A stretch of DNA of 24,000 bases from Methanosarcinales archaeon. Its GTDB lineage: Archaea; Halobacteriota; Methanosarcinia; Methanosarcinales; Methanocomedenaceae. Under the pieces are notes generated by a model. That model saw only the letters and a program-made list of their open reading frames with translations. It had not been told where the DNA came from and searched no databases. Of this stretch, positions 1 to 23,687 are shown piece by piece. Within the stretch, counting starts at the first letter, position 1. Each line of letters opens with the position of its first letter. Made by a program: the position numbers and the translations under genes. The DNA lies in assembly GCA_014859725.1 (NCBI GenBank), contig JACUTQ010000001.1:17619-41618 (forward strand), in the 5' to 3' direction.

Positions 1-345
1 GATTTCATCTATCTTAAGAGTTCCATAAATGACTTTTTTGATTTTATCAACAACTCTTCCTCCCTCCCTTATTTTGATAACTTGTCCATAGTCAACACAT
101 GTCTCTGCATAATACTCAGGAATAGTATTTGTATAGTCATCATGTCCATCAGAAAATATTTCAATTTTCTTATCTGGAAAAGGTAATTGTACCCTATCAA
201 AAACTTTTTCAAATAATTTTTCACATGTTTTTTTTGTTCGTTTCCCAATCTCATAAGCAACGATGAGATATGACCCTCTCGTCATGAAAGTGAATATCCA
301 TGCATCACCTTCGATATCTGAATTAGGGCTTCCGGGCTCAACGTT
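1..345 (-). CDS. IS1-family transposase, catalytic remainder in the -1 frame (3' end beyond window start)
   Basis: My own translation of the -1 frame from the A7C run gives NVEPGSPNSDIEGDAWIFTFMTRGSYLIVAYEIGKRTKKTCEKLFEKVFDRVQLPFPDKKIEIFSDGHDDYTNTIPEYYAETCVDYGQVIKIREGGRVVDKIKKVIYGTLKIDEI. It is open to position 1. This frame is not in the supplied ORF track because it is truncated. Confidence 0.7.
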
Positions 346-761
346 TTTTTGTTTTTTTTTACGAATGTCCACATTTCGTCAACCTCAAATTGTCCAAGTT
401 TTACATCATGAAGAAGAATAGAATTTACTAGTTCAGCATGCAAGGCAAGATCTTCAATTAGATTTCCTATTGTATCCCTATGGTGGCCTGTTATTCGTTC
501 AATCGATCTGATGCCATTTTTCTCTACAAGGTGTTTGCAGATGTTGATTATCTCGGGTTTCGAAAGATGTTTATGATATAATGGAGTTCCCTTAGTCTCC
601 ATGAAAAAGGTCTTGCAGTGATGACAATAATATCTTTGATGACCTGTGCTGTACTTACCACGTTTGATTATATCTTTACCTTCTTCTTTTAGATAATACG
701 TGCATTTCTCATTCTGGCATATTACTTTGATTTCTCCACGGGGTCGAGCCATATTTATCAC
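282..761 (-). CDS. IS1-family transposase, N-terminal reading frame (zinc ribbon + HTH + first DDE aspartate)
   Basis: 159-aa ORF. The motif STGHQRYYCHHCKTFF closely parallels the E. coli IS1 InsA motif (AGHQRYLCSHC). DEMWTFVKKNKK lies at the frame break. The ORF ends 60 nt after the A9-C-A7-C run at 343-360. Confidence 0.8.
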   Translation of the reverse strand: MINMARPRGEIKVICQNEKCTYYLKEEGKDIIKRGKYSTGHQRYYCHHCKTFFMETKGTPLYHKHLSKPEIINICKHLVEKNGIRSIERITGHHRDTIGNLIEDLALHAELVNSILLHDVKLGQFEVDEMWTFVKKNKKTLSPEALIQISKVMHGYSLS

Positions 762-909
762 AAATATAGTATATGATTTTATATTATATTAAGTATCGTA
801 ATTAAGGACACTACCTGAAACTCAGGGTATAACAGATCATATTTGGTCGTAGAAGGAATTATTGATGCTTAAAGCAGGGGGTATCAATTATATATTAGGA
901 CATTACCGA

Positions 910-1965
910 TTATTTAGTGAACACAATATTTTTCACATCATGCAAAACAATATGGCATTTTTTGCATTCAGGATATAAATCATGGATTAACTTTTGATGC
1001 GGCAACCCATGGCAGGATTCGCATGTGGGTAAGTAACCATGTTTTGGATGGCAGTAAATACAATTCAGATCGTCATGTTTCGTATTGCTTGAACGTAACT
1101 CGGAATCAATAGCTTCATGACAAATTGCACAATCATTTCTTGTAATACTTGAGGGGATATTGATAACAGCCGGATCATGAGCAGGATGACATCCAAGACA
1201 TTCGCTATTTGTCATATCTGAAGCATGAGGGATATGACAATCCATGCATTCGGGGATCTGCTCATGGACGGGGTGACATTCTGAGCAACCTAAGGCTGTA
1301 TGTTTTGTGTTCCCCTGCTCCAGTACATCACTCACCACTTCATGACAGACAGCACAGTTTTCACCGGCAATACTTTCAGGGTAATCGATTTCCTGGGGCA
1401 TATGTGCCGGATGGCAGTTCAGGCATTCACTATATGCCATCCCCCTGGCGTGCGGCGCATGACAGTTGGTGCATACCTCGATCTGTCCATGGGTCTGGTG
1501 ACAGTAATTACATCTCAGATCAGCATGTCTACCCGGATTATCAAAGAACTCCTCAATTTGCCCGGGATGACAGAGGGAACAGGAGCTTTCTAAGTCTAGG
1601 CTTATTGTGATACTCATAGGAGCATGTTTATCATGACATTCCCTGCAATCTTGAAGCTGTGTGCCGTGGACAAGTTCATGGCAATCAGTACATTTTGGCT
1701 TTAGACCGTGCCGGATATGACAGAGGGTACAACCTTTATCGTGTCCCCTGCCTTCCTGTGATATGGAAGTGAACGCCTTGATATGGCATTCTCCACAGGT
1801 TTCATCGGAAACACTCAAATACTCAATAATCGGAGCGGCTGCCGCCGGAGGTGTTGCTTCTATTGGCATTAGTTCGGGTTCCTGGGGTGTGGATAAACAC
1901 CCGGACCCGATAATAATGAACAGTACAATGGCTACTCCAAACAATGCCTTCTTCATCATAATCAT
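910..1965 (-). CDS. 16-haem c-type cytochrome, predicted lipoprotein
   Basis: 16 CxxCH motifs by manual count, and every Cys after the lipobox sits in one. The internal ATG at 1965 gives MIMMKKALFGVAIVLFIIIGSGC, i.e. a signal peptide with a lipobox-like GSGC. About 9 motifs have the form CxxCHxxH. The track ORF extends to an ATG at 2046, but that would overlap the upstream gene by 47 nt and add a non-signal 27-aa leader. Confidence 0.9.
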   Translation of the reverse strand: MIMMKKALFGVAIVLFIIIGSGCLSTPQEPELMPIEATPPAAAAPIIEYLSVSDETCGECHIKAFTSISQEGRGHDKGCTLCHIRHGLKPKCTDCHELVHGTQLQDCRECHDKHAPMSITISLDLESSCSLCHPGQIEEFFDNPGRHADLRCNYCHQTHGQIEVCTNCHAPHARGMAYSECLNCHPAHMPQEIDYPESIAGENCAVCHEVVSDVLEQGNTKHTALGCSECHPVHEQIPECMDCHIPHASDMTNSECLGCHPAHDPAVINIPSSITRNDCAICHEAIDSELRSSNTKHDDLNCIYCHPKHGYLPTCESCHGLPHQKLIHDLYPECKKCHIVLHDVKNIVFTK

Positions 1966-1999
1966 TGTATTACCTTTACAAGTGAATGCTTTAAATAAT

Positions 2000-4900
2000 T
2001 CATTTCTTATAACGAATCCCTTTCTTGAATATCTTTTGCTCACCATCTTTCATCTTCACAATGAATTCATCAGTTTTACCGCCATTTATATTCAGGTATA
2101 ACCTGGTTTTTTCATCGTTAAGTTCCAGAGTAAGATCATTTACATCAGTGGATACTTTTATGATCTTGCCGTCATCGATTTTTTCGATGTTGGCTGTTTT
2201 TGCCCAATCAATACCATAATTCTGTTCCAATTGTTCTAGGAGTTTTTCGCTATCGATTCCTGGAACTTCATTAAAGTTAAACAAATATCCACTCTTCCTT
2301 AGCAGAAGCATCAAACCAGCAAGACCTGCCCCGGTACCAATTACTATTAAAGTTATCGGCATAGATTCCTGTTCAGCTTCGGTTGGTATTTGTATCGAGA
2401 AAACGGCTTCATTCACAGGACCCCATTTATTGTCACGTTCCATTGCACGAATATATATGGTATGGTCACCTAGTTCAAGTCCGGTGGTATCAATGGTAAA
2501 TTCAACCTCTTCCACCTGCTCGTCGAATGTTCCATCCAGGGGCATAAGCTGCGTACCTGTACCTGGCGGACCTTCAACATCTATGAAATATTCTATTGTT
2601 TTCACTTTCATCTTCCAGCTGGACATGGCAGCAGCATTCACTGTCACTGTCTCCCCGAATGTGACGACCTCTGAAGACATATTGATCGAGACAATATAGG
2701 GTATGTCAGGTTCGAAAATATTGATCACATGGAGTCCGGGATAATCTGCTGCATGACACCGGTTGCAATCTTCAATCTGGCCGTGATTCTCGTCACTTAG
2801 ATCCACTGCACCATAGGTTGGCAATTCCATATATGTATGGCAATCCTGACACTGCCTGGGATACAGGTAATCAGCAGGATGCCGCTCAGGGTCAACTCCT
2901 TCTCCGTGGCAGGCCCAGCAAGCCTTATTGATATCATCGGTAAGGTTGACCTTGCTTGTTGCATTGGCATTGAGCTGGCTATGTCCGCCTAATCGGCTCT
3001 GTATCGCATCTACTGATGATATCCCAAACCCATTACTTACATCATGACATTTTACACAGTCGGACCCTCCATCCTTACCTTCGTTCAATGTTGGTACATG
3101 GAATGTATCAGGAGATCCACCTATGGAAAAGTTATCGTTAATATGGAGCTGACTGGTGTTATACCCTCCCACCTTCTCATCATCATCAATATCTGCTTCC
3201 ATAAGCCTGTCTGAAAAAACCCTGACCTCAGTAAGGCTCACAATGTCGGTATCAAATCCATGAAATACACTATCTACTTTAGCTGTTAAGATGACAAAAT
3301 CATCGATGTTATGATTTTCAGATGAAAGGTCATACTCAAATTCAATAATTTCTCCTACTCCGTATACACTATCCTCGATCACACTGCCGTCTTTGACCAG
3401 GGTTATATATGCTTGTTTACCATTAATATCCACTTCATTAGCTGTTAATATATAGTTCCCGTCAACATCCAGGGTCTGGTTATAACCTTCTATTAGCATA
3501 AGTTTTCTTGGCATAAGGGTCACCTTATCTTCGGTGTCCTCGTCTGAGAAGTCCAGTAATTTCTCCAGATAATATATGCGGTCTTCATCCTCATCCAGTA
3601 CAAGATATTTCTTCTTGTCAACAGTGTAGTCATCCATATGGCAGGCCCAGCAGGCAGGGTCTTTATCTTCGGGATGAATGCGTTTCCATGATCTTCCTTC
3701 CACCTTTACCAGGCCTATCTGCTCACCCCTGAATACCGCAGTAAAATTCAATTCAAGCACTACCAGGTCATATTCCATATCACCGTCCGGATTAATGAAA
3801 TCACCTTCATAGGTGAAGTTATTATCGGCAGATACCACTATTTCCTCAAGTATTGTATCATTGTGGTATAATCGCAGGAAAGCATTGTCACCATTAATAC
3901 CGATATCTTCAAATACAAGGAAGTACCGGTTGCCAAGGTGCCATTTATCGCCGACTAACAGTGTTATTTCCAGTTCTTCATCTGAAAGCCTGGATATGTT
4001 CGTCGTTGGATCAGGTGCATTACCCCATTCTTCTGCATTGTCCTCATCAAGGTGGCAGTAGATACAGCTTGTTGTATTTATCAGATCATCAGTGGAACCG
4101 TAATGGGATACCAGTGATGTGCTGGAAGGTATAATGTCATCATTGTTGCTCATTATACTGTTTAAGTGGCATGCTATACAGTCAACTGACGTACTTATAT
4201 TTTCGTCAATCTCATCAACATATCTGAAATGCTCGTATATCATTGGTTCATTGAAGATAGATTGATTAATGTTGTGGCAGTCCTTGTCAGCACAGTTTCT
4301 GGGATTATTATAATTAAGTGGATGACCACTTTCAAGCTGAGCTGCATCTGATCCATCACCATCGCCGTGACATGCCCAGCAGCGCACGTTATCTGAACTT
4401 CTATTTTCACTCAGTTCATTGGTAGCAGCTCTGTTAAGGTCATAGTGTATTGCATCTGATTTGTTCATAGCCTGAACGTCAATTTGGAATTCTGCTGGTA
4501 CGGATCCGCCTATATCATGACATTCTACACAATATTTTCCGCCACCTGCCGCTACTTTATGCACGAATTCAGTGGTTGTTGCGGTTGTGGAGAGTAGACT
4601 GCCATGACAACCTTTGCAAACGACATCGTTGTAGTTACTACTATTGATTGATGAGTGATTGTACCAGCCCTGACCTGTACCATCCCATGATGTACTGTTG
4701 TTTGTATTGTTGTTGAATATAGTCGGTGGAACCGGGGATCGTTTCGTGCCATTGTAGTAGGATGAACTGGAATTGTGACAGATAGAACACCAGTAACTAT
4801 TGCTGCTGACATCGAGACTGACATTGCGATCATTATCACCCTTTACACTGTCTATAAAACCTAATGCACTGGTATTGTGTTTGGTATCATTGTGGCAGAA

Positions 4901-7900
4901 CTCACAGGCTCCGTTGCTGTCATTCCAGTAGTTAGTCTCATTCCACCTGCTGCCGCTTGTGGGAGCTTCGCTGTGGCTGAATCCGTAATTCTCGTCAGGT
5001 ACTTTTGGTATTGTTACATTAATGTTAGTATCAACTGCACCTGATGAATGGCAGGTGTAACAGTCAACCGCACTGCTATTCGACGTGTTGTACGTGTCGT
5101 CCTGCTGCAGGTACTTGACGCCATGTATATCACGGGCTTCGGACAGGTGACATTCACTGCAGTTTAATGTGTTGTTGTGCCTGGCTTTAGGCGTGGTAAA
5201 TGACATATAGGTGCTGTAATTGGTAGAGTCATGACAGGAAAGACAGATAGCACTGTCTTCAGTACCATTGATCATCAGGTCGGGTTTTGTAAGACTGGCG
5301 TTATGCATCCAGCCGCCATTATGACAGGTCGCGTTTGTACAGTTCGGAGTGGAATCATATCGGCTGTGTCCGGATATGTTTGCATTGAAAGTTTTGTTAG
5401 TCATGATGCTGTCAATACCGAATTCGTTGCCTCCGTTCTGGTGACAGTAACTGCAGTTCACCCCTCCGGCCCAGATACGGAGATCGCTGGAGTCACCCAC
5501 AACACTTCGTTTCTTACCGTAGTGCGAGACCAGCGAATACCAGCCGGTACTGTTTATACCCTGGATCGGTGGAAGATTGGAAGTGACTTTCATCCCGGTG
5601 AGGTTATGGCAGTTCCTGCATGAGGTGAGATTATCTGAAGTATTACCTGCTTTGAGCTTGCTGGCCTGTGCAAAGTGCTGCACTACATCAGGGGCCCAGA
5701 CTAACACCGAGGCATTTACTGAACTGGATACGCCCACCATGTGGCATTCATCGCAGGTGAATGGATTGGGACCTGGCAAATTGTTATCTGAAGTCCTGAC
5801 CCGGTCAGCATGGTCGGTATAATTGCCTGGAGCGTTTGAATCGTTCATGTGGCAGAGCCAGCAGATCTTGTTGACATCTGAAGTGTTTGATGAATAGGGA
5901 TTGGATATTGCGGCATAGGTTCTGACATTGGAATGGATTGAAAAGGTACTGTTCAGGGCAGTGACATTGATACGGGGTGCAACATCGCTGGATATATCAT
6001 GGCACCAGGTACAGTTGGCACCGAAGGTACCTTCCGCCACCCGGTGCGGGAATTCTTTGGTGGTCTTTTCAACCAGTAATGAACCGTGACAGGGTCCGCA
6101 TGCATTGTCGTTATAAGAGATCAGGGAATGGTTATAATAATCAAGGGAGACACCCTGCCAGTTGGTACCATTGGTGATTTCGGGGGCTATACCTACCAGG
6201 CTGAAAGCGGCAATCATGGAATCGTAATTGGAATCGCCTTTGTAGTGGCAGCCCGAACACCAGGTGTCATCACCTATTGAAATGTTCTTGACATTACCGC
6301 TACTGATACTTGTGATACGGCCGAGAGCTGAAACAGAGTGTTTTGTGTCGTTGTGGCAGTATTCACAGGCTTCATTGGTATTGTTCCAGTATGAACCCAA
6401 AGTGACATTGGCCCACCTCAATCCATTATTAACCTGGCTGTGTGTGAAGTTGAAATCGGTCTGCATCGGTACCTTAGGACGGTCGGTTGCCGTGATGTTG
6501 GTGCTGAGGTTATTGGAAGCGTGGCAGTCCTGGCAGTTGACGGCAGAGATGTTGAAAGTACTGTACGTGTCGTCCTGCTGCAGGTACTTGACGCCATGTA
6601 TGTCACGGGCTTCGTACAGGTGACATTCGGTGCAGTTCAGTGTATCGTTGTGTCTATTTTTTAAACCTGTTATGGATGTGTATGTAGTATAATTACCTGG
6701 ACCGTGACAGTTCAGACAAACCTGACTGCTGGGCTCACCACCCGTATAATTAGTAGTTAGATCTGGTTTATCGAGACTTTCGCTATGCATCCATCCCTCG
6801 TTATGACAGTTTACAGATGTACAGTCAGGCGTCGTACTATTATAATGCAGACTGTGATTATTGATAGAACTATTTAATTCCGGATTTGACATGGCTACAT
6901 CAAAAGAAGTACTCTCGTTTTGGTGGCAGTAACTACAATTTACACTCTCGTTGGTACCGGTCCTAAGATTACCAGCACCGATACTGCGCTTCCTGCCGTA
7001 GTGGGCTATCAGGTAACTGGCATTGCTCTGATCCTCGGGGTCCGTGCCAGAAGGAATCGTGACATCAAGTTTCATCTCGCTCAGGTTGTGACAGATCTCG
7101 CAGGAACTGAGATTATCTGAAGTATTACCTGCTGTGAGCTTGCTGGCCTGTGCAAAGTGCTGCACTACATCAGGGGCCCGGACTAACACCGAGGCATTTA
7201 CTGAAGTGGATACGCCCACCAAGTGGCATTCATCACAGGTATAGACGGGGATGCCATTGAAATCGCCCAATCTGTCAGCATGGGCTTTCTTGTTTATTTT
7301 GTCTGTATACTGACTGTTGTTCATGTGGCAAGCCCAACATATCTTGTTGGTATCGTTTACATCATCTACGTCGGTTATGCTGTCATAGGTGCTGATATTC
7401 TGGTGTACAGAGAGTGAATTGTTCACTATACTGAAGTTGACCTTTGGGGATTGTTTACTTATGTCATGACAGCCGATACAGTCAGGACCCCCTGCCGGTT
7501 GTACATCGTGCCCGTGCCCACGGGAAAGTGGAAGTGCTAGTCCTGAGAACGGTTCAATGTTGCCCTTATGGCATGTATCCAGACACCGGGTGTTGTTTCC
7601 TTCGGCAACGAAAGAAGCATGAGCGTGGATTGTGGGACCCTCACTTGCACCAGTGAGAGAGTGGCATTTCGTGCAGTCCGGATTTGAGTTCCATGTGTGA
7701 ACCCCAAAACGATCTGTGATGTTTATTTTTAACGGGCCTGCAGTATAATCTATGGTAAAAATGACATTGGTGTGACACACGAGGCAACCAGTCTGATTCG
7801 TGGGCCTACTGCTTGTCGCATTCCATGTCATAGTCCTGTGAACGTTGTCATTTAGCATCATATCGCCATCTAAAACCACATTTAAATAGTTTTTTGGCAA

Positions 7901-9355
7901 ATTGAGCATTGGAAGCTGCTTTTTATGAAATTTTAATGAGGCAGAGAAATGGCAGTAATAGCATTTAATTCTTGTAACTTCGTGCGCACTTGGATATAAA
8001 CCAGTTACGTCATAAAGATTATGACATACGTTTGGACCGCACCCGCCATCTGCCTTCTCTTCATTAACAATTTTTGAATGACAATTGATGCAAACCTGAT
8101 TAGGATATGCCACTCTTGACAGGTTAGATGCTCCAGCCCATCCATCACCTGTGTTTGGGTTTGCATGTCTGGCATACATATCCCCACCGAAATCCGGACC
8201 TGGTGGATCAGTTCCAAAGCCAGTGCGGGTCGTTAACGTGTCCAGTTTGTGCGTCATATTCGAACCATACGGCGCTAGAGTGATATTGTCGTCCATCATG
8301 GCATAACCACCCGAAGCGTTTTCATATCCCTCCTGGATCTCAGCTGCGGTTTTTGTGTGGCATTCAGTGCACAGGGGCGATAACGTATTGCTATTACTGG
8401 ATGTGTTGTCAGTGCTATGGATCGTTGTTTTGACATTATAGGAACCTGTGTACAGTTTGGTTCCTGTGTATGTCAGGGTGTTATTGTTGTGACACTGAAG
8501 GCAGGACAATACCGGGAATTTATGTAATGTTGTATCCATTTCATCATGGCAGTTCTCACATCCTCCGGTCTCATTCCTATCAAGAGACTCATCGTGGATA
8601 CGCCCACCTGCATGGCAGCTCTGATTTGTGCAATTGATTACACTGCTGTGATTTTCCATGGGATCATTGGTGACAGAAAAATTAATGGAACTAAAAGCAA
8701 CTGAAGTGTTGTGGCAGTACATACAGTAGGCAGAAGTGTTGTTCAAGACAACAAGGTCATCTCTCTTTTTGCCGTAATGGGAAGACAATGATAATTTTGT
8801 GTAGTTGGTATCAGGTTCTGAATAATCAGCACGCTTCATCTCGGTCTGGTTATGACACTCAATACAGGATTCAGTTGCATTTGCAGCGGTAGTTACCGCC
8901 GCAATATTATCGCCGGATTTGAAATGTTCCTTTACCACTGGTGCGCTGCTGACATTTTCGTATGCAACCGTTCCGTTATGGCATTCGTAGCAATTGTAAG
9001 GATTTTTCTGCCTGTCAGGATGTGAATCAGGTTTGCTACCGTCACTCTGGTGGCAGCCCCAGCATATACTGTTGTTGGCATTGCCTTCACCGGCAGCAAT
9101 AGCATTCATGTTGTTGTTTAACTCGGCATGAATGTTATCGGACTGGTTCATGGCTGATACCGATACATTATATGATGATGTCTCATTTGCAACATCATGA
9201 CACCCTATACAATCAGGGCCACCCTCTGCTGCCGCACTGCCCGAAATCGAATATAGTAATAAAAATAAAATTAATATGATTATAAGATTATACTTGAACT
9301 TGGGACAAGACAACAAGTCAGCAAATTTTCGGTATGTTTTTGGCTTCATAATCAT
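2000..9355 (-). CDS. Giant (2,451 aa) multihaem c-type cytochrome with S-layer-like domain pair, Ig-like domain, C-terminal TM anchor and cytoplasmic tail
   Basis: Uninterrupted 7,356-nt ORF with an N-terminal signal-like segment (KPKTYRK + LIIILILFLLLYSISGSAAA). Manual count gives 43 CxxCH + 5 Cx4CH + 1 Cx3CH, and the only Cys outside these motifs is in the signal region. There are about 108 N-x-S/T sequons. TM helix is MPITLIVIGTGAGLAGLMLLL followed by RK. Confidence 0.95.
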   Translation of the reverse strand: MIMKPKTYRKFADLLSCPKFKYNLIIILILFLLLYSISGSAAAEGGPDCIGCHDVANETSSYNVSVSAMNQSDNIHAELNNNMNAIAAGEGNANNSICWGCHQSDGSKPDSHPDRQKNPYNCYECHNGTVAYENVSSAPVVKEHFKSGDNIAAVTTAANATESCIECHNQTEMKRADYSEPDTNYTKLSLSSHYGKKRDDLVVLNNTSAYCMYCHNTSVAFSSINFSVTNDPMENHSSVINCTNQSCHAGGRIHDESLDRNETGGCENCHDEMDTTLHKFPVLSCLQCHNNNTLTYTGTKLYTGSYNVKTTIHSTDNTSSNSNTLSPLCTECHTKTAAEIQEGYENASGGYAMMDDNITLAPYGSNMTHKLDTLTTRTGFGTDPPGPDFGGDMYARHANPNTGDGWAGASNLSRVAYPNQVCINCHSKIVNEEKADGGCGPNVCHNLYDVTGLYPSAHEVTRIKCYYCHFSASLKFHKKQLPMLNLPKNYLNVVLDGDMMLNDNVHRTMTWNATSSRPTNQTGCLVCHTNVIFTIDYTAGPLKINITDRFGVHTWNSNPDCTKCHSLTGASEGPTIHAHASFVAEGNNTRCLDTCHKGNIEPFSGLALPLSRGHGHDVQPAGGPDCIGCHDISKQSPKVNFSIVNNSLSVHQNISTYDSITDVDDVNDTNKICWACHMNNSQYTDKINKKAHADRLGDFNGIPVYTCDECHLVGVSTSVNASVLVRAPDVVQHFAQASKLTAGNTSDNLSSCEICHNLSEMKLDVTIPSGTDPEDQSNASYLIAHYGRKRSIGAGNLRTGTNESVNCSYCHQNESTSFDVAMSNPELNSSINNHSLHYNSTTPDCTSVNCHNEGWMHSESLDKPDLTTNYTGGEPSSQVCLNCHGPGNYTTYTSITGLKNRHNDTLNCTECHLYEARDIHGVKYLQQDDTYSTFNISAVNCQDCHASNNLSTNITATDRPKVPMQTDFNFTHSQVNNGLRWANVTLGSYWNNTNEACEYCHNDTKHSVSALGRITSISSGNVKNISIGDDTWCSGCHYKGDSNYDSMIAAFSLVGIAPEITNGTNWQGVSLDYYNHSLISYNDNACGPCHGSLLVEKTTKEFPHRVAEGTFGANCTWCHDISSDVAPRINVTALNSTFSIHSNVRTYAAISNPYSSNTSDVNKICWLCHMNDSNAPGNYTDHADRVRTSDNNLPGPNPFTCDECHMVGVSSSVNASVLVWAPDVVQHFAQASKLKAGNTSDNLTSCRNCHNLTGMKVTSNLPPIQGINSTGWYSLVSHYGKKRSVVGDSSDLRIWAGGVNCSYCHQNGGNEFGIDSIMTNKTFNANISGHSRYDSTPNCTNATCHNGGWMHNASLTKPDLMINGTEDSAICLSCHDSTNYSTYMSFTTPKARHNNTLNCSECHLSEARDIHGVKYLQQDDTYNTSNSSAVDCYTCHSSGAVDTNINVTIPKVPDENYGFSHSEAPTSGSRWNETNYWNDSNGACEFCHNDTKHNTSALGFIDSVKGDNDRNVSLDVSSNSYWCSICHNSSSSYYNGTKRSPVPPTIFNNNTNNSTSWDGTGQGWYNHSSINSSNYNDVVCKGCHGSLLSTTATTTEFVHKVAAGGGKYCVECHDIGGSVPAEFQIDVQAMNKSDAIHYDLNRAATNELSENRSSDNVRCWACHGDGDGSDAAQLESGHPLNYNNPRNCADKDCHNINQSIFNEPMIYEHFRYVDEIDENISTSVDCIACHLNSIMSNNDDIIPSSTSLVSHYGSTDDLINTTSCIYCHLDEDNAEEWGNAPDPTTNISRLSDEELEITLLVGDKWHLGNRYFLVFEDIGINGDNAFLRLYHNDTILEEIVVSADNNFTYEGDFINPDGDMEYDLVVLELNFTAVFRGEQIGLVKVEGRSWKRIHPEDKDPACWACHMDDYTVDKKKYLVLDEDEDRIYYLEKLLDFSDEDTEDKVTLMPRKLMLIEGYNQTLDVDGNYILTANEVDINGKQAYITLVKDGSVIEDSVYGVGEIIEFEYDLSSENHNIDDFVILTAKVDSVFHGFDTDIVSLTEVRVFSDRLMEADIDDDEKVGGYNTSQLHINDNFSIGGSPDTFHVPTLNEGKDGGSDCVKCHDVSNGFGISSVDAIQSRLGGHSQLNANATSKVNLTDDINKACWACHGEGVDPERHPADYLYPRQCQDCHTYMELPTYGAVDLSDENHGQIEDCNRCHAADYPGLHVINIFEPDIPYIVSINMSSEVVTFGETVTVNAAAMSSWKMKVKTIEYFIDVEGPPGTGTQLMPLDGTFDEQVEEVEFTIDTTGLELGDHTIYIRAMERDNKWGPVNEAVFSIQIPTEAEQESMPITLIVIGTGAGLAGLMLLLRKSGYLFNFNEVPGIDSEKLLEQLEQNYGIDWAKTANIEKIDDGKIIKVSTDVNDLTLELNDEKTRLYLNINGGKTDEFIVKMKDGEQKIFKKGIRYKK
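2003..2362 (-). other. C-terminal TM helix (2300-2362) + RK + 97-aa predicted cytoplasmic tail of unknown fold (2003-2293)
   Basis: A 21-residue hydrophobic stretch is followed by RK (positive-inside). The tail is SGYLFNFNEVPGIDSEKLLEQLEQNYGIDWAKTANIEKIDDGKIIKVSTDVNDLTLELNDEKTRLYLNINGGKTDEFIVKMKDGEQKIFKKGIRYKK. It has no Cys or His and no plausible internal start codon (its only Met is 14 residues from the C-terminus), so it is part of the same polypeptide. Confidence 0.7.
3215..3990 (-). other. Pair of ~100-aa beta-rich domains resembling the Methanosarcina S-layer duplication domain (DUF1608/TIGR01567-like), separated by an acidic linker carrying one CWACH haem site (3638-3652)
   Basis: Domain 1 is EITLLVGDKWHLGNRYFLVFEDIGINGDNAFLRLYHNDTILEEIVV...VKVEG. 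Domain 2 is LMLIEGYNQTLDVDGNYILTANEVDINGKQAYITLVKDGSVIEDSVYG...EVRVFS. The pattern 'G-x-x-Y-x-L ... D-(I/V)-(N/D)-G-x-x-A-(F/Y)-(L/I)-x-L-x-(K/H)-(D/N)-G/D' recurs in both. This is a recognition call from memory and no HMM was run. Confidence 0.6.
4532..6013 (-). repeat. Intragenic tandem module copy C (12 haem motifs, ~494 aa). Boundaries approximate.
   Basis: Starts at GANCTWCHDISS. The next module begins at KYCVECHDIGGS, 1,482 nt downstream. Copy C shares islands of about 96% nucleotide identity with copy B (5631-5740 vs 7113-7222; 5091-5155 vs 6564-6628). Confidence 0.85.
6014..7495 (-). repeat. Intragenic tandem module copy B (12 haem motifs, ~489 aa). Boundaries approximate.
   Basis: Starts at AGGPDCIGCHDISK. 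It is collinear with copy C motif for motif. The first-Cys to first-Cys distance to copy C is 1,467 nt. Confidence 0.85.
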
Positions 9356-9577
9356 TAATCTCAGTAAATCAATTTAAAATATATATACATGTCCATTTTC
9401 AAAGATCGTTACAATTCGTGATGGTGAAATTTAATAAGTTGATTTTTCCCTTAATCTAACTGTTGGAATATATTAGAGCTGTCCTGTGATATCCACTTTA
9501 AGCTATGAAAATATATTTATTGTCCATAAAGATAATTAACTACTTATAGATAACGATTAATTCAGAATATAACTTTT
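9356..9577. promoter_or_regulatory. Divergent AT-rich intergenic region between the giant cytochrome gene and elp3. TATA-like boxes are present.
   Basis: tttaaaatatatatac at 9374-9388 lies 19-33 nt upstream of the minus-strand ATG at 9355, which implies a very short or absent leader. aaaatatatttat at 9508-9520 lies upstream of elp3. There is no transcript evidence. Confidence 0.3.
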
Positions 9578-21959: not shown

Positions 21960-23687
21960 ATGTTGAAAGTTAAGAACCTGGTAAAGGACTATGATGTAGA
22001 TGATGCTAAGGTTAGAGTACTAAATGGTGTCAGTTTTGAGGTTAATGATGGTGATATATTAGGGATCATGGGACGAAGTGGTGGCGGAAAGACCACACTA
22101 ATGAAGGTGTTAAGAGGCGTTGAGAATTTTGTTGAAGGTGAGATCGAAATTGATGGACTTACCATTACCCCGGATTCTTCATTCCAGGATATTAGAGCAC
22201 TAAAAGATATAACTGCTATACATCTTCAAAGAAATTTTGGTCTCTGGACTGGTTCTGCAATTGAAAACATTATAAGACGTATATATTCTCTTAAAGTAGG
22301 GCAAGAAGCCCTTCCTCATAGGGATCACCCGGATTTTGATGTACTGTATGCCGAGAGTATGGAATATCTCAAACTAGTGGGCCTTGATCATAAGGCCGAA
22401 CATTTCTCATCTGTGCTCAGTGGTGGTGAAAAACAGAGATTATTGATAGCCCGGCAGATTGCTGCCAAACCCAAGCTTTTATTACTGGACGAACCCGCAA
22501 CCATGACCTGTCCCGCAACCAAACAGGAAGTGCTGGACACAATAAAAAAGGTTCATCAGGAAACCGGGATCATGACCATAGTTGTCTCACATCTCCCTGA
22601 GATACATGGTTATCTTGCAGACAAACTAATATTGCTCGAAGACGGTAAGATCGTGGCCCAGGGTGAACCAAAAACCATAATTAAAGAATTCCTTAAGGAC
22701 ATTCGACCCATAGTACCACTTCCTGACATAAAAGAAAAAATTCCTGTTATTAAGGTTGAAAATGTGAGTCAACGGTATTATTTGATACGCCAGGGAGAGG
22801 TACTGGATATTGAAGATATGAGCATTGAATTCAATAAAGGCGAGATCACTGCAATCATAGGACCCAGCGGCGGAGGTAAGACCACATTGCTTCATGCCAT
22901 GGACGGGCTCATTTATCCTGATGAAGGTGAGATAAGCTACCTGGTTGACAATGATTGGGTAGATATCACCATCTATAATCCCAGTCGAATGGAACTTCGC
23001 AGAAGGACCAGTATCATGTACCAGGAATTTGCGCTGTACCCTAATTCACCCATCAAGCATCAACTGGCATATAAACTGGGAGTTAAGGGTATGCACGTTA
23101 TAGAGAATGCCCGTAAAAAGGCAAAGGAATTGAGCATTCCTGATGAAGATCTTGATATTATTTACCGGTTGACAGATATTGGCGGAGAAAAAGCCCAGGA
23201 GCAACTGGAAGAGATGGGATATCAATTGGATATTATCAGCATCCTCTTCCCAAGTAGTACTATGGATGAGGTCAAGAAATATGCAGAACCGATCTTTGAA
23301 GCTATGTGGCTGCCCATATCTGCACTTAACGCAAAACCATACCAGTTAAGTGGTGGAGAAAATGTAAGGGCTGCACTGGCCCTGGCGACTATCACACAAC
23401 CTGAATATCTATTATTGGATGAACCATTCGGAGATCTGGACCCACGTACTTTGCGAGAGGTGGCCAATTCCCTTAAAAGGTTCAATGCACAGTTCAATAC
23501 TACCATTGTTTTCATTAGCCATCACATGGATTTTGTGAATGAACTGGCACATAGAGCTATCATGATCGAAAACGGTAAGATCACTATGGATGATGAACCC
23601 ATGGCCGTCACTAAAAAGCTGATAGAAGTGGGTCATGCCACGTATATGAAGCATGCATTGAAGGATTATTCAATAGTAACAAACTAA
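21960..23687 (+). CDS. atwA: Soluble tandem-ABC ATPase. Best guess is methyl-coenzyme M reductase activation component A2 family.
   Basis: Two ABC cassettes: GRSGGGKTTL / LSGGEKQR / LLLLDEP and GPSGGGKTTL / LSGGENVR / LLLDEPFGDLD. There is no adjacent permease gene. Segments such as IHLQRNFGLW and MYQEFALYP resemble A2 proteins. A GGAGG lies 10-14 nt upstream of the ATG. It lacks the Cys-rich insert I recall in some A2 homologues, so the family call is moderate. Confidence 0.55.
   Translation: MLKVKNLVKDYDVDDAKVRVLNGVSFEVNDGDILGIMGRSGGGKTTLMKVLRGVENFVEGEIEIDGLTITPDSSFQDIRALKDITAIHLQRNFGLWTGSAIENIIRRIYSLKVGQEALPHRDHPDFDVLYAESMEYLKLVGLDHKAEHFSSVLSGGEKQRLLIARQIAAKPKLLLLDEPATMTCPATKQEVLDTIKKVHQETGIMTIVVSHLPEIHGYLADKLILLEDGKIVAQGEPKTIIKEFLKDIRPIVPLPDIKEKIPVIKVENVSQRYYLIRQGEVLDIEDMSIEFNKGEITAIIGPSGGGKTTLLHAMDGLIYPDEGEISYLVDNDWVDITIYNPSRMELRRRTSIMYQEFALYPNSPIKHQLAYKLGVKGMHVIENARKKAKELSIPDEDLDIIYRLTDIGGEKAQEQLEEMGYQLDIISILFPSSTMDEVKKYAEPIFEAMWLPISALNAKPYQLSGGENVRAALALATITQPEYLLLDEPFGDLDPRTLREVANSLKRFNAQFNTTIVFISHHMDFVNELAHRAIMIENGKITMDDEPMAVTKKLIEVGHATYMKHALKDYSIVTN

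What the first reader, a model, noticed from the sequence alone, without database searches (positions are those of the whole stretch)
910..9355. Two-gene multihaem cytochrome module: candidate S-layer-spanning extracellular electron-transfer conduit
Seen in sequence:
- Two same-strand genes are separated by only ~34 nt (stop at 2000, probable ATG at 1965).
- Both carry N-terminal export signals, and together they hold ~65 haem-binding motifs in 8.4 kb.
- The small protein has a lipobox, so it would sit on the outer face of the membrane.
- The giant has S-layer-like domains, a C-terminal TM helix and ~44 haem motifs N-terminal to the S-layer domains.

Established knowledge: S-layer/multihaem-cytochrome fusions have been reported from ANME-2-type genomes and proposed to carry electrons across the S-layer for direct interspecies electron transfer. 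To my knowledge none has been characterised structurally or biochemically.

Inference: the path would run lipoprotein cytochrome, then the membrane-proximal 4-haem segment, then the haem in the S-layer linker, then a long external haem array.

The window contains no membrane quinol/methanophenazine-oxidising module and no cytochrome c maturation genes. An IS1 element sits directly downstream, so the locus may be incomplete or rearranged.
Basis: partly seen in the sequence, partly recalled or inferred. Interest (0 to 1): 0.85.

Follow-up and report, generated by a model that had tools for sequence, protein, structure and literature searches.

The report
ANME S-layer multihaem cytochrome pair
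This is a two-gene cytochrome cassette of a methane-oxidising archaeon, a 49-haem surface-layer protein plus a 16-haem lipoprotein partner; it belongs to a class already described from genomes (ANME "MHC-A") that is thought to carry electrons out of the cell but has never been studied biochemically.

Summary
There are two minus-strand genes, 2000-9355 and 910-1965, separated by 34 nt. They carry 49 + 16 = 65 haem motifs, against fewer than 1 expected by chance.

The giant has a signal peptide, then 44 haems. These are followed by two S-layer (DUF1608) half-domains with one haem between them, four more haems, an Ig-like domain and a TM helix. The small protein has a conserved lipobox.

This is not a new kind of system. 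The giant is a member of ANME "MHC-A" (Chadwick 2022). It is the ~2,400-aa long form reported for ANME-3 and for one ANME-2a genome (2024 preprint), at 60% identity to the ANME-3 HMMV copy. PheRS-beta places the host near ANME-2a/b, not ANME-3.

What I add:
- The pair is syntenic in 7 other loci. In ordinary ANME-2a it is fused into one ORF, where the lipobox Cys is replaced and the signal peptide serves as a second TM helix. This is a gene-fusion argument that the two proteins work together.
- The giant is built from a copy-number-variable ~490-aa, 12-haem module.
- N-glycosylation sequons are 2.7-fold enriched only in the outer array.
- The cytoplasmic tail is one copy of a widespread unannotated domain.

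Function as an electron conduit remains inferred.

The parts
2000..9355 (-). Giant multihaem cytochrome gene (2451 aa, 49 haem motifs): ANME MHC-A, long form
   Evidence: ORF; motif count; Pfam MtrC/MtrF II-IV, c7 and S-layer hits. Homologues are 89% (P0001), 59-64% full length (P0004-P0008) and 60% to Ca. Methanovorans HMMV, L001.
9230..9355 (-). Signal peptide of the giant (aa 1-42; n-region with K/R, h-region LIIILILFLLLY, c-region SGSAAA)
   Evidence: Hydropathy; conserved in P0001-P0007.
7493..9232 (-). Haem module 1 (aa 42-621, 15 haem motifs)
   Evidence: Self-comparison: aa 45-248 match 622-851 and 1107-1347 at about 31%.
6038..7492 (-). Haem module 2 (aa 622-1106, 12 haem motifs)
   Evidence: 49-54% identical to module 3.
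4553..6037 (-). Haem module 3 (aa 1107-1601, 12 haem motifs)
   Evidence: P0002/L010 has 73 haems, that is 24 more haem motifs, consistent with two further 12-haem modules.
4034..4552 (-). Partial module 4 (aa 1602-1774, 5 haem motifs)
   Evidence: Matches the start of modules 1-3 and the tetrahaem segment.
3695..3988 (-). S-layer (DUF1608) half-domain 1 (aa 1790-1887)
   Evidence: PF07752 48.4 bits alone. Beta-sandwich with pLDDT 70-85. 3U2G is the top hit by fold (E 4.4e-6) and by profile (9e-10).
3638..3652 (-). Single haem motif CWACH (aa 1902-1906) in the linker between the S-layer halves
   Evidence: C128/C131/H132 are invariant in 12/12 aligned homologues. This is a defining trait in PMC9012536.
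3161..3481 (-). S-layer (DUF1608) half-domain 2 (aa 1959-2065)
   Evidence: PF07752 49.5 bits alone; beta-sandwich in the model.
2753..3073 (-). Membrane-proximal tetrahaem segment (aa 2095-2201)
   Evidence: Four CxxCH, all invariant. Homologous to module starts, 34% to aa 1605-1730.
2384..2701 (-). Ig-like beta-sandwich stalk domain (aa 2219-2324)
   Evidence: AF2 pLDDT about 85. Ig-fold hits in Foldseek. Weak Big_7 hit.
2294..2365 (-). C-terminal transmembrane helix (aa 2331-2354)
   Evidence: Hydropathy 2.26; helix in the model.
2003..2293 (-). 97-aa cytoplasmic tail domain (aa 2355-2451), one copy of a widespread unannotated ~90-aa domain
   Evidence: AF2: 2 helices plus 6 strands, pLDDT 83-89. 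1397 representative proteins at E<=1e-3. Carriers include NB-ARC/KAP NTPases, GAF and phage Tail_P2_I proteins. Deleted in L011/L007.
1966..1999 (-). 34-nt spacer with AAGGT Shine-Dalgarno-like motif
   Evidence: Sequence.
910..1965 (-). 16-haem lipoprotein cytochrome gene (351 aa)
   Evidence: 49 homologues. Best solved relatives by profile are MtrA (6R2Q chain A) and GSU1996.
1897..1965 (-). Signal peptide and lipobox (MIMMKKALFGVAIVLFIIIGSG|C)
   Evidence: IIGSGC is invariant in the 8 split forms. Fused forms have IIGLGY/ITGFGF at this position.
913..1806 (-). Four tandem ~75-aa tetrahaem repeats of the small cytochrome
   Evidence: Self-comparison at 31-52% identity. All CxxCH and distal His of repeats 2-4 are invariant in 35 sequences.
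1..761 (-). IS1-family transposase with a frame change, cut by the window edge (not part of the module)
   Evidence: NF033558 60.9 bits and InsA zinc ribbon. The DDE part continues in another frame to position 1.

Best explanation
The locus is the split form of an ANME 'MHC-A' cassette, in an uncultured Methanosarcinales archaeon related to ANME-2a/b.

**Shown**
- The giant protein is exported and is anchored by one C-terminal helix.
- Going outward from the membrane it carries, in order:
  - an Ig-like stalk;
  - a tetrahaem segment;
  - two DUF1608 S-layer half-domains with one haem between them;
  - 44 more haems, built from repeats of a ~490-aa, 12-haem module rich in N-glycosylation sequons.
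- The downstream gene encodes a 16-haem protein made of four tetrahaem repeats, with a conserved lipobox.
- In ordinary ANME-2a genomes the same two parts form one polypeptide. There the small protein's signal peptide serves as a second TM helix.

**Inferred**
- Electrons come from the membrane pool through a methanophenazine:cytochrome c oxidoreductase or Rnf/MmcA, encoded elsewhere.
- They then pass to the tetrahaem segment, cross the S-layer plane through the single linker haem, and leave through the glycosylated 44-haem array.
- The final acceptor would be a partner bacterium, a mineral or the conductive matrix.
- The DUF1608 halves would co-assemble with the normal S-layer lattice. They would play the role that the MtrB porin plays in Shewanella.
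For: **Family identity**
- Pfam S-layer, MtrC/MtrF II-IV and c7 hits.
- 3U2G is the top hit by fold and by profile.
- 60% full-length identity to the Ca. Methanovorans HMMV copy. 56% over the C-terminal ~900 aa to Methanocomedens S7142MS1.
- The architecture matches Chadwick 2022 Fig 11 and the ~2,400-aa form in the 2024 preprint.

**Partnership of the two genes**
- The small gene follows the giant in L001, L002, L005, L007, L009, L010 and L011.
- The two are fused in L003, L004 and L008. The C-terminal 12-haem part there is 59% identical to small-protein residues 156-378.
- The lipobox Cys is invariant when the genes are split and is replaced by Y/F when they are fused.

**Topology**
- The outer array has 98 sequons against 35.8 +/- 5.1 expected.
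- The small protein has 0 sequons against 1.3 expected, which is not significant on its own. Its homologues carry 0-5.
- The array enrichment is kept in 13 homologues.

**Wire-like nature**
- There are enough His for bis-His ligation, and the candidate distal His are invariant.
- The best solved relatives by profile are MtrA and GSU1996.

**Selection**
- dN/dS is 0.17-0.43.

**Independent assemblies**
- L011 is collinear with window 2248-9385 at 92% nucleotide identity.
Against: - No experiment on any member shows haem loading, S-layer integration or electron transfer.
- Published transcript data are mixed. Large MHCs were transcribed at low levels in ANME-2c cultures. S-layer MHCs were not expressed in some iron-reducing or syntrophic conditions.
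- AF2 models are poor in all haem segments (pLDDT <50), so haem-chain continuity could not be tested.
- The MtrA/GSU1996 profile matches carry high Cys/His bias.
- Which side of the S-layer the N-terminal array occupies is inferred only from sequon density and domain order.
- Archaeal lipidation of this lipobox is untested.
- No upstream electron donor is encoded in the window.
Confidence: 0.7

Rival explanations
1. The proteins are genuine surface cytochromes, but their main role is not to cross the S-layer. The long glycosylated array could act as an extracellular redox store, a conductive-matrix element or a contact/adhesion structure. Trans-S-layer transfer would then be done by small diffusible cytochromes passing through S-layer pores.
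For: - Haem-module copy number varies freely between relatives: 31, 49 and 73 haems.
- The array evolves faster than the core, with dS 0.20 against 0.027 and dN/dS 0.40.
- Small MHCs are far more highly transcribed in ANME.
- MmcA/Rnf may suffice for EET in Methanosarcina.
Against: - The linker haem and the four membrane-proximal haems are invariant across 12 homologues down to 33% identity. That is hard to explain if only the outer array mattered.
- Fusion to a membrane-side 12/16-haem wire points to a continuous path from the membrane.
Confidence: 0.15
2. The hardware is the same but the direction is reversed. The module takes electrons up from a partner or a cathode, for example for methanogenic or CO2-reducing growth, rather than exporting them.
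For: - Bis-His multihaem wires are reversible in principle. This rests on my own knowledge; I did not look it up here.
- The window holds no catabolic genes that fix the host's lifestyle.
Against: - Every named relative comes from ANME lineages or Methanoperedens.
- The host's PheRS-beta groups with ANME-2 MAGs at 74-78%, against 63-64% for methanogenic Methanosarcinaceae.
Confidence: 0.1
3. The locus is a decaying or mis-assembled remnant. The repeat-rich 7.4-kb ORF would be an assembly chimera, or the module would have been inactivated by nearby insertion sequences.
For: - An IS1 element lies 148 nt downstream.
- There are internal repeats.
- The closest relatives have a 268-bp deletion at the 3' end of the giant gene.
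Against: - Both ORFs are intact, with all 65 motifs present.
- Modules 2 and 3 are only about 50% identical, so repeat collapse is unlikely.
- An independent assembly (L011) is collinear over 7.2 kb. Four further full-length orthologues of 2423-2466 aa exist.
- dN/dS is below 0.5.
Confidence: 0.03

Closest known systems
ANME MHC-A, long ~2,400-aa form of Ca. Methanovorans (ANME-3) HMMV and Methanocomedens Agg-24214b1 (Chadwick et al. 2022, PMC9012536; preprint 10.1101/2024.05.23.595608)
   Same: - Signal peptide, long haem array, S-layer domain with one haem in its linker, tetrahaem segment and C-terminal TM helix.
- 60% identity over the full length to the HMMV contig (L001).
- 63% identity, rising to 81% in the C-terminal part, to P0002 from JGI sample 3300024214.
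- A downstream 16-haem gene is present in all of them.
   Different: - The host is not ANME-3. PheRS-beta is 74-78% identical to ANME-2/Methanocomedens MAGs and 63-64% to Methanosarcinaceae.
- The passages of those papers that my term searches returned do not describe the split partner gene, the modular repeat structure or the cytoplasmic tail. I did not read the papers in full and could not see the figures.
Standard ANME-2a/2b MHC-A (~1,350 aa, two TM helices), e.g. Methanocomedens sp. S7142MS1
   Same: - The C-terminal ~900 aa are 56% identical, with the same S-layer, linker-haem, tetrahaem, Ig and TM order.
- The C-terminal 12-haem extension is 59% identical to the window's small protein.
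   Different: - Here the extension is a separate gene with its own signal peptide and lipobox, and it has 16 haems rather than 12.
- The giant has about 30 more haems through module duplication.
- The ANME-2a loci carry an extra 8-haem gene upstream that this window lacks.
MtrCAB porin-cytochrome conduit of Shewanella (PDB 6R2Q)
   Same: - The logic is the same: an inner decahaem-type wire hands electrons through the outermost layer to a surface multihaem protein.
- The giant hits the Pfam MtrC/MtrF domain II/IV family at 148 bits.
- The small-protein profile's best solved match is 6R2Q chain A, which is MtrA (E 1.9e-20).
   Different: - There is no beta-barrel porin. S-layer DUF1608 domains are fused to the cytochrome instead.
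- The cell has a single membrane.
- There are 65 haems rather than 20.
- The sequence similarity is remote and biased by Cys/His.
Methanosarcina acetivorans S-layer protein MA0829 (PDB 3U2G/3U2H)
   Same: DUF1608 beta-sandwich fold (Foldseek E 4.4e-6, rmsd 2.1 A over 104 columns; profile E 9e-10). Both also have a C-terminal membrane anchor.
   Different: - MA0829 has no haems and has two complete DUF1608 domains.
- Here there is one DUF1608-equivalent, split by a ~70-aa haem-binding insert.
- TIGR01567 scores below its cut-off.
GSU1996 dodecahaem 'nanowire' cytochrome of Geobacter sulfurreducens (PDB 3OV0)
   Same: Tandem small multihaem units forming a dense haem array. It is the second-best solved match of the small-protein profile (E 2.4e-12).
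   Different: - GSU1996 is built of c7-type trihaem units, whereas here the units are tetrahaem.
- Foldseek found no significant fold match for the AF2 model.

Membership tests
ANME MHC-A (Chadwick et al. 2022) | Very large c-type cytochrome (more than 10, typically 20-80 haem-binding motifs) | tested here: met
   49 motifs in 2451 aa, against 0.15 expected by shuffling.
ANME MHC-A (Chadwick et al. 2022) | S-layer (DUF1608 / PF07752) domain | tested here: met
   PF07752 at 84 bits (cut-off 30). Each half scores 48-49 bits alone. 3U2G is the top fold and profile hit.
ANME MHC-A (Chadwick et al. 2022) | Single haem-binding motif in the linker between the two S-layer subdomains | tested here: met
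   CWACH at aa 1902, between domains 1790-1887 and 1959-2065. Invariant in 12/12 homologues.
ANME MHC-A (Chadwick et al. 2022) | C-terminal transmembrane helix | tested here: met
   aa 2331-2354, Kyte-Doolittle 2.26, helical in the AF2 model. No dedicated TM predictor was available.
ANME MHC-A (Chadwick et al. 2022) | No haem-free N-terminal peptidase-M6-like domain (which defines MHC-B) and no pectin-lyase/beta-helix domain (which defines MHC-C) | tested here: met
   Haems start at aa 49. No PF13229/PF05048 or peptidase hit. No CcmF gene is adjacent.
ANME MHC-A (Chadwick et al. 2022) | Sequence similarity to recognised MHC-A members | tested here: met
   60% to the Ca. Methanovorans HMMV contig and 56% to Methanocomedens S7142MS1 over the C-terminal ~900 aa.
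Lipoprotein (lipobox-bearing exported protein) | Signal peptide ending in a lipobox [LIVMFWSTAG]2-[LIVMFYSTAGCQ]-[AGS]-C, Cys at position 15-35, K/R near the N-terminus | tested here: met
   MIMMKKALFGVAIVLFIIIGSG-C23. IIGSGC is invariant in the 8 split forms and the Cys is lost in the 3 fused forms. The pattern rule is PROSITE PS00013 as I recall it; I checked it by eye, not with a tool.
Lipoprotein (lipobox-bearing exported protein) | Actual lipid modification and signal-peptide cleavage at the Cys | not testable with these tools
   Needs mass spectrometry or labelling. The archaeal machinery is not encoded in the window.
MtrCAB-type porin-cytochrome conduit | Beta-barrel porin (MtrB) sheathing a decahaem MtrA | tested here: not met
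   No porin-like ORF is in the window or next to the module in 10 related loci. The host is a single-membrane archaeon. The resemblance is functional, with only remote haem-domain homology.
S-layer family duplication domain protein (TIGR01567) | Score above the NCBIfam cut-off for the full duplication domain | tested here: not met
   62.3 bits against a cut-off of 121.9. The domain is interrupted by the haem insert. The Pfam model and the fold comparison are met instead.
IS1 family insertion sequence (downstream neighbour) | InsA zinc ribbon plus DDE transposase joined by a frameshift, and terminal inverted repeats | tested here: inconclusive
   NF033558 at 60.9 bits, below the 100 cut-off. 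The DDE part continues in another frame to the window edge. No inverted repeats can be found because the element is cut off.

The most novel reading that the evidence does not exclude
The giant's 97-aa cytoplasmic tail is one copy of a large, unannotated ~90-aa domain family.

- The family has 1,397 representative proteins.
- The domain often occurs in 2-11 tandem copies.
- Carriers include NB-ARC/KAP-type STAND NTPases, GAF proteins and a phage-tail-like baseplate protein.

If this domain is a protein-protein adaptor or sensor module, the split-form MHC-A would be physically coupled to a cytoplasmic NTPase or contractile-injection network. That would mean regulated assembly or signalling at the electron conduit, a link that none of the passages I read mentions.
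Probability: 0.12. Interest if true: 0.6.

Novelty: new member of a known kind. Interest (0 to 1): 0.4.

Why it matters
S-layer-fused giant cytochromes are the leading candidates for how methane-oxidising archaea pass electrons to sulfate-reducing partners or to minerals. That process limits marine methane emission. Yet I found no solved structure of any of them, and the papers I consulted report only transcript evidence.

This locus does not change the concept, but it sharpens it in four ways:
- **Dedicated partner.** The split/fused comparison identifies the 16-haem lipoprotein as the dedicated membrane-side partner of MHC-A. It also gives a small (351-aa), separately expressible target for binding and structural work.
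- **Source of length variation.** The module analysis explains the 1,350 / 2,450 / 3,430-aa size series as copy-number variation of one 12-haem unit.
- **Topology prediction.** The sequon gradient makes a testable prediction about which parts lie outside the S-layer.
- **Lineage.** The long form is present in an ANME-2a/b-related lineage. This fits the published idea that ANME-3 acquired its MHC-A horizontally from such archaea.

Tried and rejected
**Searches that found little or nothing**
- Single-sequence PDB searches for both proteins found nothing. Only profiles gave hits.
- The AF2 model of the small cytochrome (pLDDT 64) gave no significant Foldseek match. Haem regions of both models are below pLDDT 50, so I drew no conclusion about haem-chain geometry.
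- The exact giant protein is not in the contig index.
- For the tail domain I searched Pfam, PDB profiles and plasmid and phage collections. I also scanned six carrier proteins against PADLOC. No family or name emerged, and cluster look-ups gave no organism names.
- A search for terminal inverted repeats of the IS1 found none, because the element is truncated by the window.

**Ideas considered and rejected**
- *The host is ANME-3.* I considered this because the closest named giant is labelled 'Methanosarcinaceae'. PheRS-beta identities argue against it.
- *The 8.6-kb cassette is demonstrably mobile.* The window and L011 share only 827-9385 and have different flanks. But insertion sequences on each side could explain that without cassette transfer, so I do not claim mobility.
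- *The tail domain is extracellular.* Tandem repeats suggested this, but 101 of 149 carriers have no TM-like segment and 147 have no haem motif.

- The bacterial promoter/terminator scan was not used, because the host is an archaeon.
Full report
**1. Observation**

The window has two minus-strand ORFs, 2000..9355 (2451 aa) and 910..2046.

*Spacing and starts*
- The giant ends with TGA at 2002-2000.
- An alignment of eight orthologues shows that the small protein starts at the ATG at 1965-1963.
- That leaves a 34-nt spacer with an AAGGT motif 8 nt upstream of the ATG.
- The mature gene is therefore 910..1965 (351 aa).

*Haem motifs*
- The giant has 43 CxxCH, 1 CxxxCH and 5 CxxxxCH. The small protein has 16 CxxCH.
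- Shuffled sequences give means of 0.15 and 0.27, with a maximum of 2.
- The CxxxxCH motifs recur at equivalent positions of the internal repeats (aa 242, 845 and 1339). They are therefore real variant sites rather than noise.

*Signals and anchor*
- Both proteins have N-terminal hydrophobic signal segments.
- The giant has one further hydrophobic helix at aa 2331-2354.

**2. Anatomy of the giant**

*Repeat structure.* Self-comparison shows a repeat architecture (haem positions):

| Part | Residues | Haems |
|---|---|---|
| Module 1 | 42-621 | 15 |
| Module 2 | 622-1106 | 12 |
| Module 3 | 1107-1601 | 12 |
| Partial module 4 | 1602-1774 | 5 |

Modules 2 and 3 are about 50% identical to each other.

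*S-layer region*
- Two beta-sandwich domains follow, at aa 1790-1887 and 1959-2065. Each passes the Pfam S-layer model on its own, at 48.4 and 49.5 bits against a cut-off of 30.
- They are separated by a ~70-aa insert that carries CWACH at aa 1902.

*Membrane-proximal region*
- Next is a tetrahaem segment (aa 2095-2201), which is itself homologous to the start of the modules.
- Then come an Ig-like domain (aa 2219-2324), the TM helix and a 97-aa tail.

*Structure prediction and comparison*
- I predicted aa 1775-2451 with AlphaFold2, using a 12-sequence alignment.
  - The beta domains, the Ig domain and the tail have pLDDT 70-89.
  - The haem-binding stretches are below 50.
- Foldseek against the PDB puts the Methanosarcina acetivorans S-layer protein MA0829 (3U2G) first, with E 4.4e-6 and rmsd 2.1 A over 104 columns.
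- A profile of the alignment finds 3U2G as the only solved relative, at E 9e-10.
- TIGR01567 scores below its cut-off (62 against 122 bits), as expected for a domain interrupted by an insert.

*Conservation*
- The linker haem and all four membrane-proximal haem motifs are invariant in 12 homologues, down to 33% identity.

**3. The small protein and its link to the giant**

*Composition*
- The small protein consists of four ~75-aa tetrahaem repeats.
- All CxxCH motifs and candidate distal histidines of repeats 2-4 are invariant in 35 sequences.

*Solved relatives*
- A profile search of the PDB gives three leading hits:
  - chain A of 6R2Q at E 1.9e-20. This is the decahaem MtrA of the Shewanella baltica MtrCAB complex; the molecule name in the file is evidently wrong, and that identification rests on my own knowledge.
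  - GSU1996 (3OV0) at E 2.4e-12.
  - the 16-haem HmcA (1Z1N).
- These matches carry high Cys/His bias.
- The AF2 model of the small protein gave no significant fold match.

*Synteny*
- The small gene directly follows the giant in seven other loci:
  - L001 (Ca. Methanovorans HMMV);
  - L002 and L009 (Methanosarcinaceae MAGs);
  - L005 and L007;
  - L010 and L011.
- Nothing else in the neighbourhood is conserved.

*Fusion in ANME-2a*
- In three loci the two parts form one ORF of 1343-1387 aa with 31 haems. These are L003 (Methanocomedens sp. S7142MS1), L004 and L008.
- In that ORF the MHC-A part ends in a TM helix, followed by a 9-residue loop and a second TM helix.
- After that comes a 12-haem domain that is 59% identical to residues 156-378 of the window's small protein.

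*The lipobox switch*
- In the alignment, the second TM helix of the fused forms corresponds to the signal peptide of the split forms.
- All eight split forms have IIGSGC at this position. The three fused forms have IIGLGY or ITGFGF.
- So the Cys is present exactly where a separate protein must be anchored.

**4. Topology clue**

| Region | Sequons observed | Expected from shuffles |
|---|---|---|
| Outer array (aa 46-1774) | 98 | 35.8 +/- 5.1 |
| S-layer to Ig part | 10 | 3.6 |
| Cytoplasmic tail | 0 | about 0.7 |
| Small protein | 0 | 1.3 |

- The zero in the small protein is not significant on its own.
- The array enrichment holds in 13 giant homologues: 3.7-6.4 sequons per 100 aa in the array against 1.4-2.6 in the C-terminal part.
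- The small-protein homologues carry 0-5 sequons.
- This fits an array exposed outside the S-layer and a partner that stays beneath it. It remains inference.

**5. What it is**

- Chadwick et al. 2022 (PMC9012536) define ANME MHC-A by three features: an S-layer domain, a single haem motif in the S-layer linker, and a C-terminal TM helix.
- They propose that MHC-A is the functional analogue of MtrCAB for crossing the S-layer.
- A 2024 preprint (10.1101/2024.05.23.595608) reports that one Ca. Methanovorans (ANME-3) subclade carries an MHC-A of about 2,400 aa. So does a single Methanocomedens genome, Agg-24214b1. This is twice the usual size.
- The window's giant is 60% identical over its full length to the HMMV contig.
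- It is 63% identical, rising to 81% in the C-terminal part, to P0002 (3428 aa, 73 haems). P0002 comes from JGI sample 3300024214, very probably that Methanocomedens genome.
- All defining features tested are met. This is a member of a known class.
- I found no structural or biochemical characterisation. There are no solved relatives beyond 3U2G, and the papers report only transcript evidence.

**6. Host**

The rest of the window encodes archaeal housekeeping genes: Elp3, FKBP26, RPA, Nre, PCMT, PheRS-beta and an AtwA-like ABC ATPase.

PheRS-beta identities:

| Identity | Relatives |
|---|---|
| 93% | a cluster including a 'Methanosarcinales archaeon' and a MAG labelled 'Nanoarchaeia' (probably a mislabel) |
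| 74-78% | ANME-2 cluster and Ca. Methanocomedens MAGs |
| 63-64% | Methanosarcina and other Methanosarcinaceae |
| 61-62% | Methanogaster and Methanoperedens |

- The MAG labelled 'Nanoarchaeia' also holds L007.
- The host is therefore an ANME-2a/b-related lineage, not ANME-3.
- This rests on a single marker gene.

**7. Local history**

*Comparison with the closest relative*
- L011 is the closest relative; L007 is the same population, at 99.7% identity.
- L011 shares window 827-9385 at 92-96% nucleotide identity.
- It lacks window 1980-2247, so its giant ends just after the TM helix (LLRKWKFA*), with a remnant of the tail left behind.
- More distant relatives keep the tail. The difference is therefore a deletion in L011, and the tail is dispensable.

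*Flanks*
- The flanks differ. The window has an IS1-family transposase downstream and Elp3 upstream.
- L011 has an IS66-type gene upstream and a 747-aa HTH protein downstream.

*Selection and mosaic divergence*
- dN/dS between the window and L011 is 0.43 for the giant and 0.17 for the small gene.
- Synonymous divergence is mosaic: 0.20 in the array, 0.027 in the S-layer-to-Ig part and 0.096 in the small gene.
- This suggests recombination or gene conversion.

*Integrity*
- Both genes are intact and under purifying selection.
- An independent assembly is collinear over 7.2 kb, so a chimera is unlikely.

**8. The cytoplasmic tail**

- A phmmer search of the 97-aa tail against 1.84 billion representatives found 1,397 proteins at E<=1e-3 and 723 at E<=1e-10.
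- Identity is 40-58%, and the domain often occurs in 2-11 tandem copies.
- Sampled carriers have NB-ARC/nSTAND3 or KAP NTPase domains, GAF domains or a phage Tail_P2_I domain.
- Of 149 carriers, 101 have no TM-like segment and 147 have no CxxCH motif.
- No Pfam family or solved structure matches the domain, and carrier proteins gave no PADLOC hit beyond their NTPase regions.
- Plasmid and phage collections hold no copy.
- The model shows two helices followed by six strands, with pLDDT 83-89.
- Its role here is unknown. A cytoplasmic adaptor is a guess.

**9. Mechanism and verdict**

*Most likely mechanism* (confidence about 0.7 for function, about 0.95 for family membership)
- Electrons from the membrane pool enter the lipid-anchored 16-haem wire.
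- They pass to the tetrahaem segment, which the Ig-like stalk holds above the membrane.
- They cross the S-layer plane at the single linker haem, while the DUF1608 halves sit in the lattice.
- They then spread along the glycosylated 44-haem array to an external acceptor.

*Shown*
- The domain order, its conservation, the synteny, the fusion and the family membership.

*Inferred*
- Haem loading, lipidation, S-layer insertion, orientation and the direction of electron flow.

*Rivals*
- A matrix or capacitor role.
- Reverse electron flow.
- A defunct locus.

*Verdict*
- The finding is real and correctly interpreted.
- It is a new member of a published class, so I rate interest as moderate (0.4).

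Noticed in passing
window 2003-2293 (-): The giant's 97-aa C-terminal cytoplasmic tail belongs to a large family without a Pfam model. The family has 1,397 representative proteins at 40-58% identity, with up to 11 tandem copies per protein. Carriers include NB-ARC/KAP NTPases, GAF proteins and a Tail_P2_I protein. The consensus is YLFSWDEIPGNDS..L..FLKQ..GIDWVKTAKIEKIDDGKTI.VS...N.L.L.LN.EKT.V.L.IDDGRTDEF.VK.ENGKLNIY.
   Followed up: partly
window 1980-2247 vs L011 8016 / L007 1107: The closest relatives (92-96% nucleotide identity) carry a 268-bp deletion. It removes the tail domain and most of the spacer, leaving a short out-of-frame remnant. The tail is therefore dispensable.
   Followed up: yes
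window 1-761 (-): An IS1-family transposase starts 148 nt downstream of the small gene. Its zinc-ribbon/HTH ORF stops at 282, and the DDE part continues in another frame to the window edge. This is either a programmed frameshift, as in IS1, or a pseudogene. The element is truncated by the window.
   Followed up: partly
window 2000-9355 vs L011: Synonymous divergence is mosaic: 0.20 in the haem array, 0.027 in the S-layer-to-Ig part and 0.096 in the small gene. This suggests recombination or gene conversion within the cassette.
   Followed up: partly
L007 (DATKUV010000212.1) and protein P0108: A public MAG labelled 'Candidatus Nanoarchaeia archaeon' (SMAG_U14116) carries a 95-96% identical copy of this cytochrome pair. 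A PheRS-beta under the same 'Nanoarchaeia' label (P0108) is 93% identical to the window's. The label is probably a taxonomic or binning error for an ANME-2-like Methanosarcinales genome.
   Followed up: no
L003 1384-2673, L004 8461-9747, L008 4136-5305: The fused-type ANME-2a loci carry an extra 8-haem, ~390-430-aa cytochrome immediately upstream of MHC-A. It has a C-terminal haem-free region. The window and the other split-type loci have no counterpart.
   Followed up: no
L009 8869-15279: In one Methanosarcinaceae (ANME-3-like) MAG, CbiX-, nitrogenase-like (Oxidored_nitro), NifH-like and CbiA-type genes lie next to the cytochrome pair. They resemble the coenzyme F430 biosynthesis (cfb) cluster. 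This is probably coincidental synteny.
   Followed up: no
window 21960-23687 (+): A double ABC ATPase has its best NCBIfam hit to methyl-coenzyme M reductase component A2 (AtwA). It scores 300 bits, below the 517-bit cut-off, so it is a paralogue rather than AtwA itself.
   Followed up: no
window 9349-9355 (-): The giant's annotated start (ATG at 9355) is two codons upstream of a second ATG at 9349. The second ATG corresponds to the start of the 89%-identical P0001, so the true start is ambiguous.
   Followed up: no
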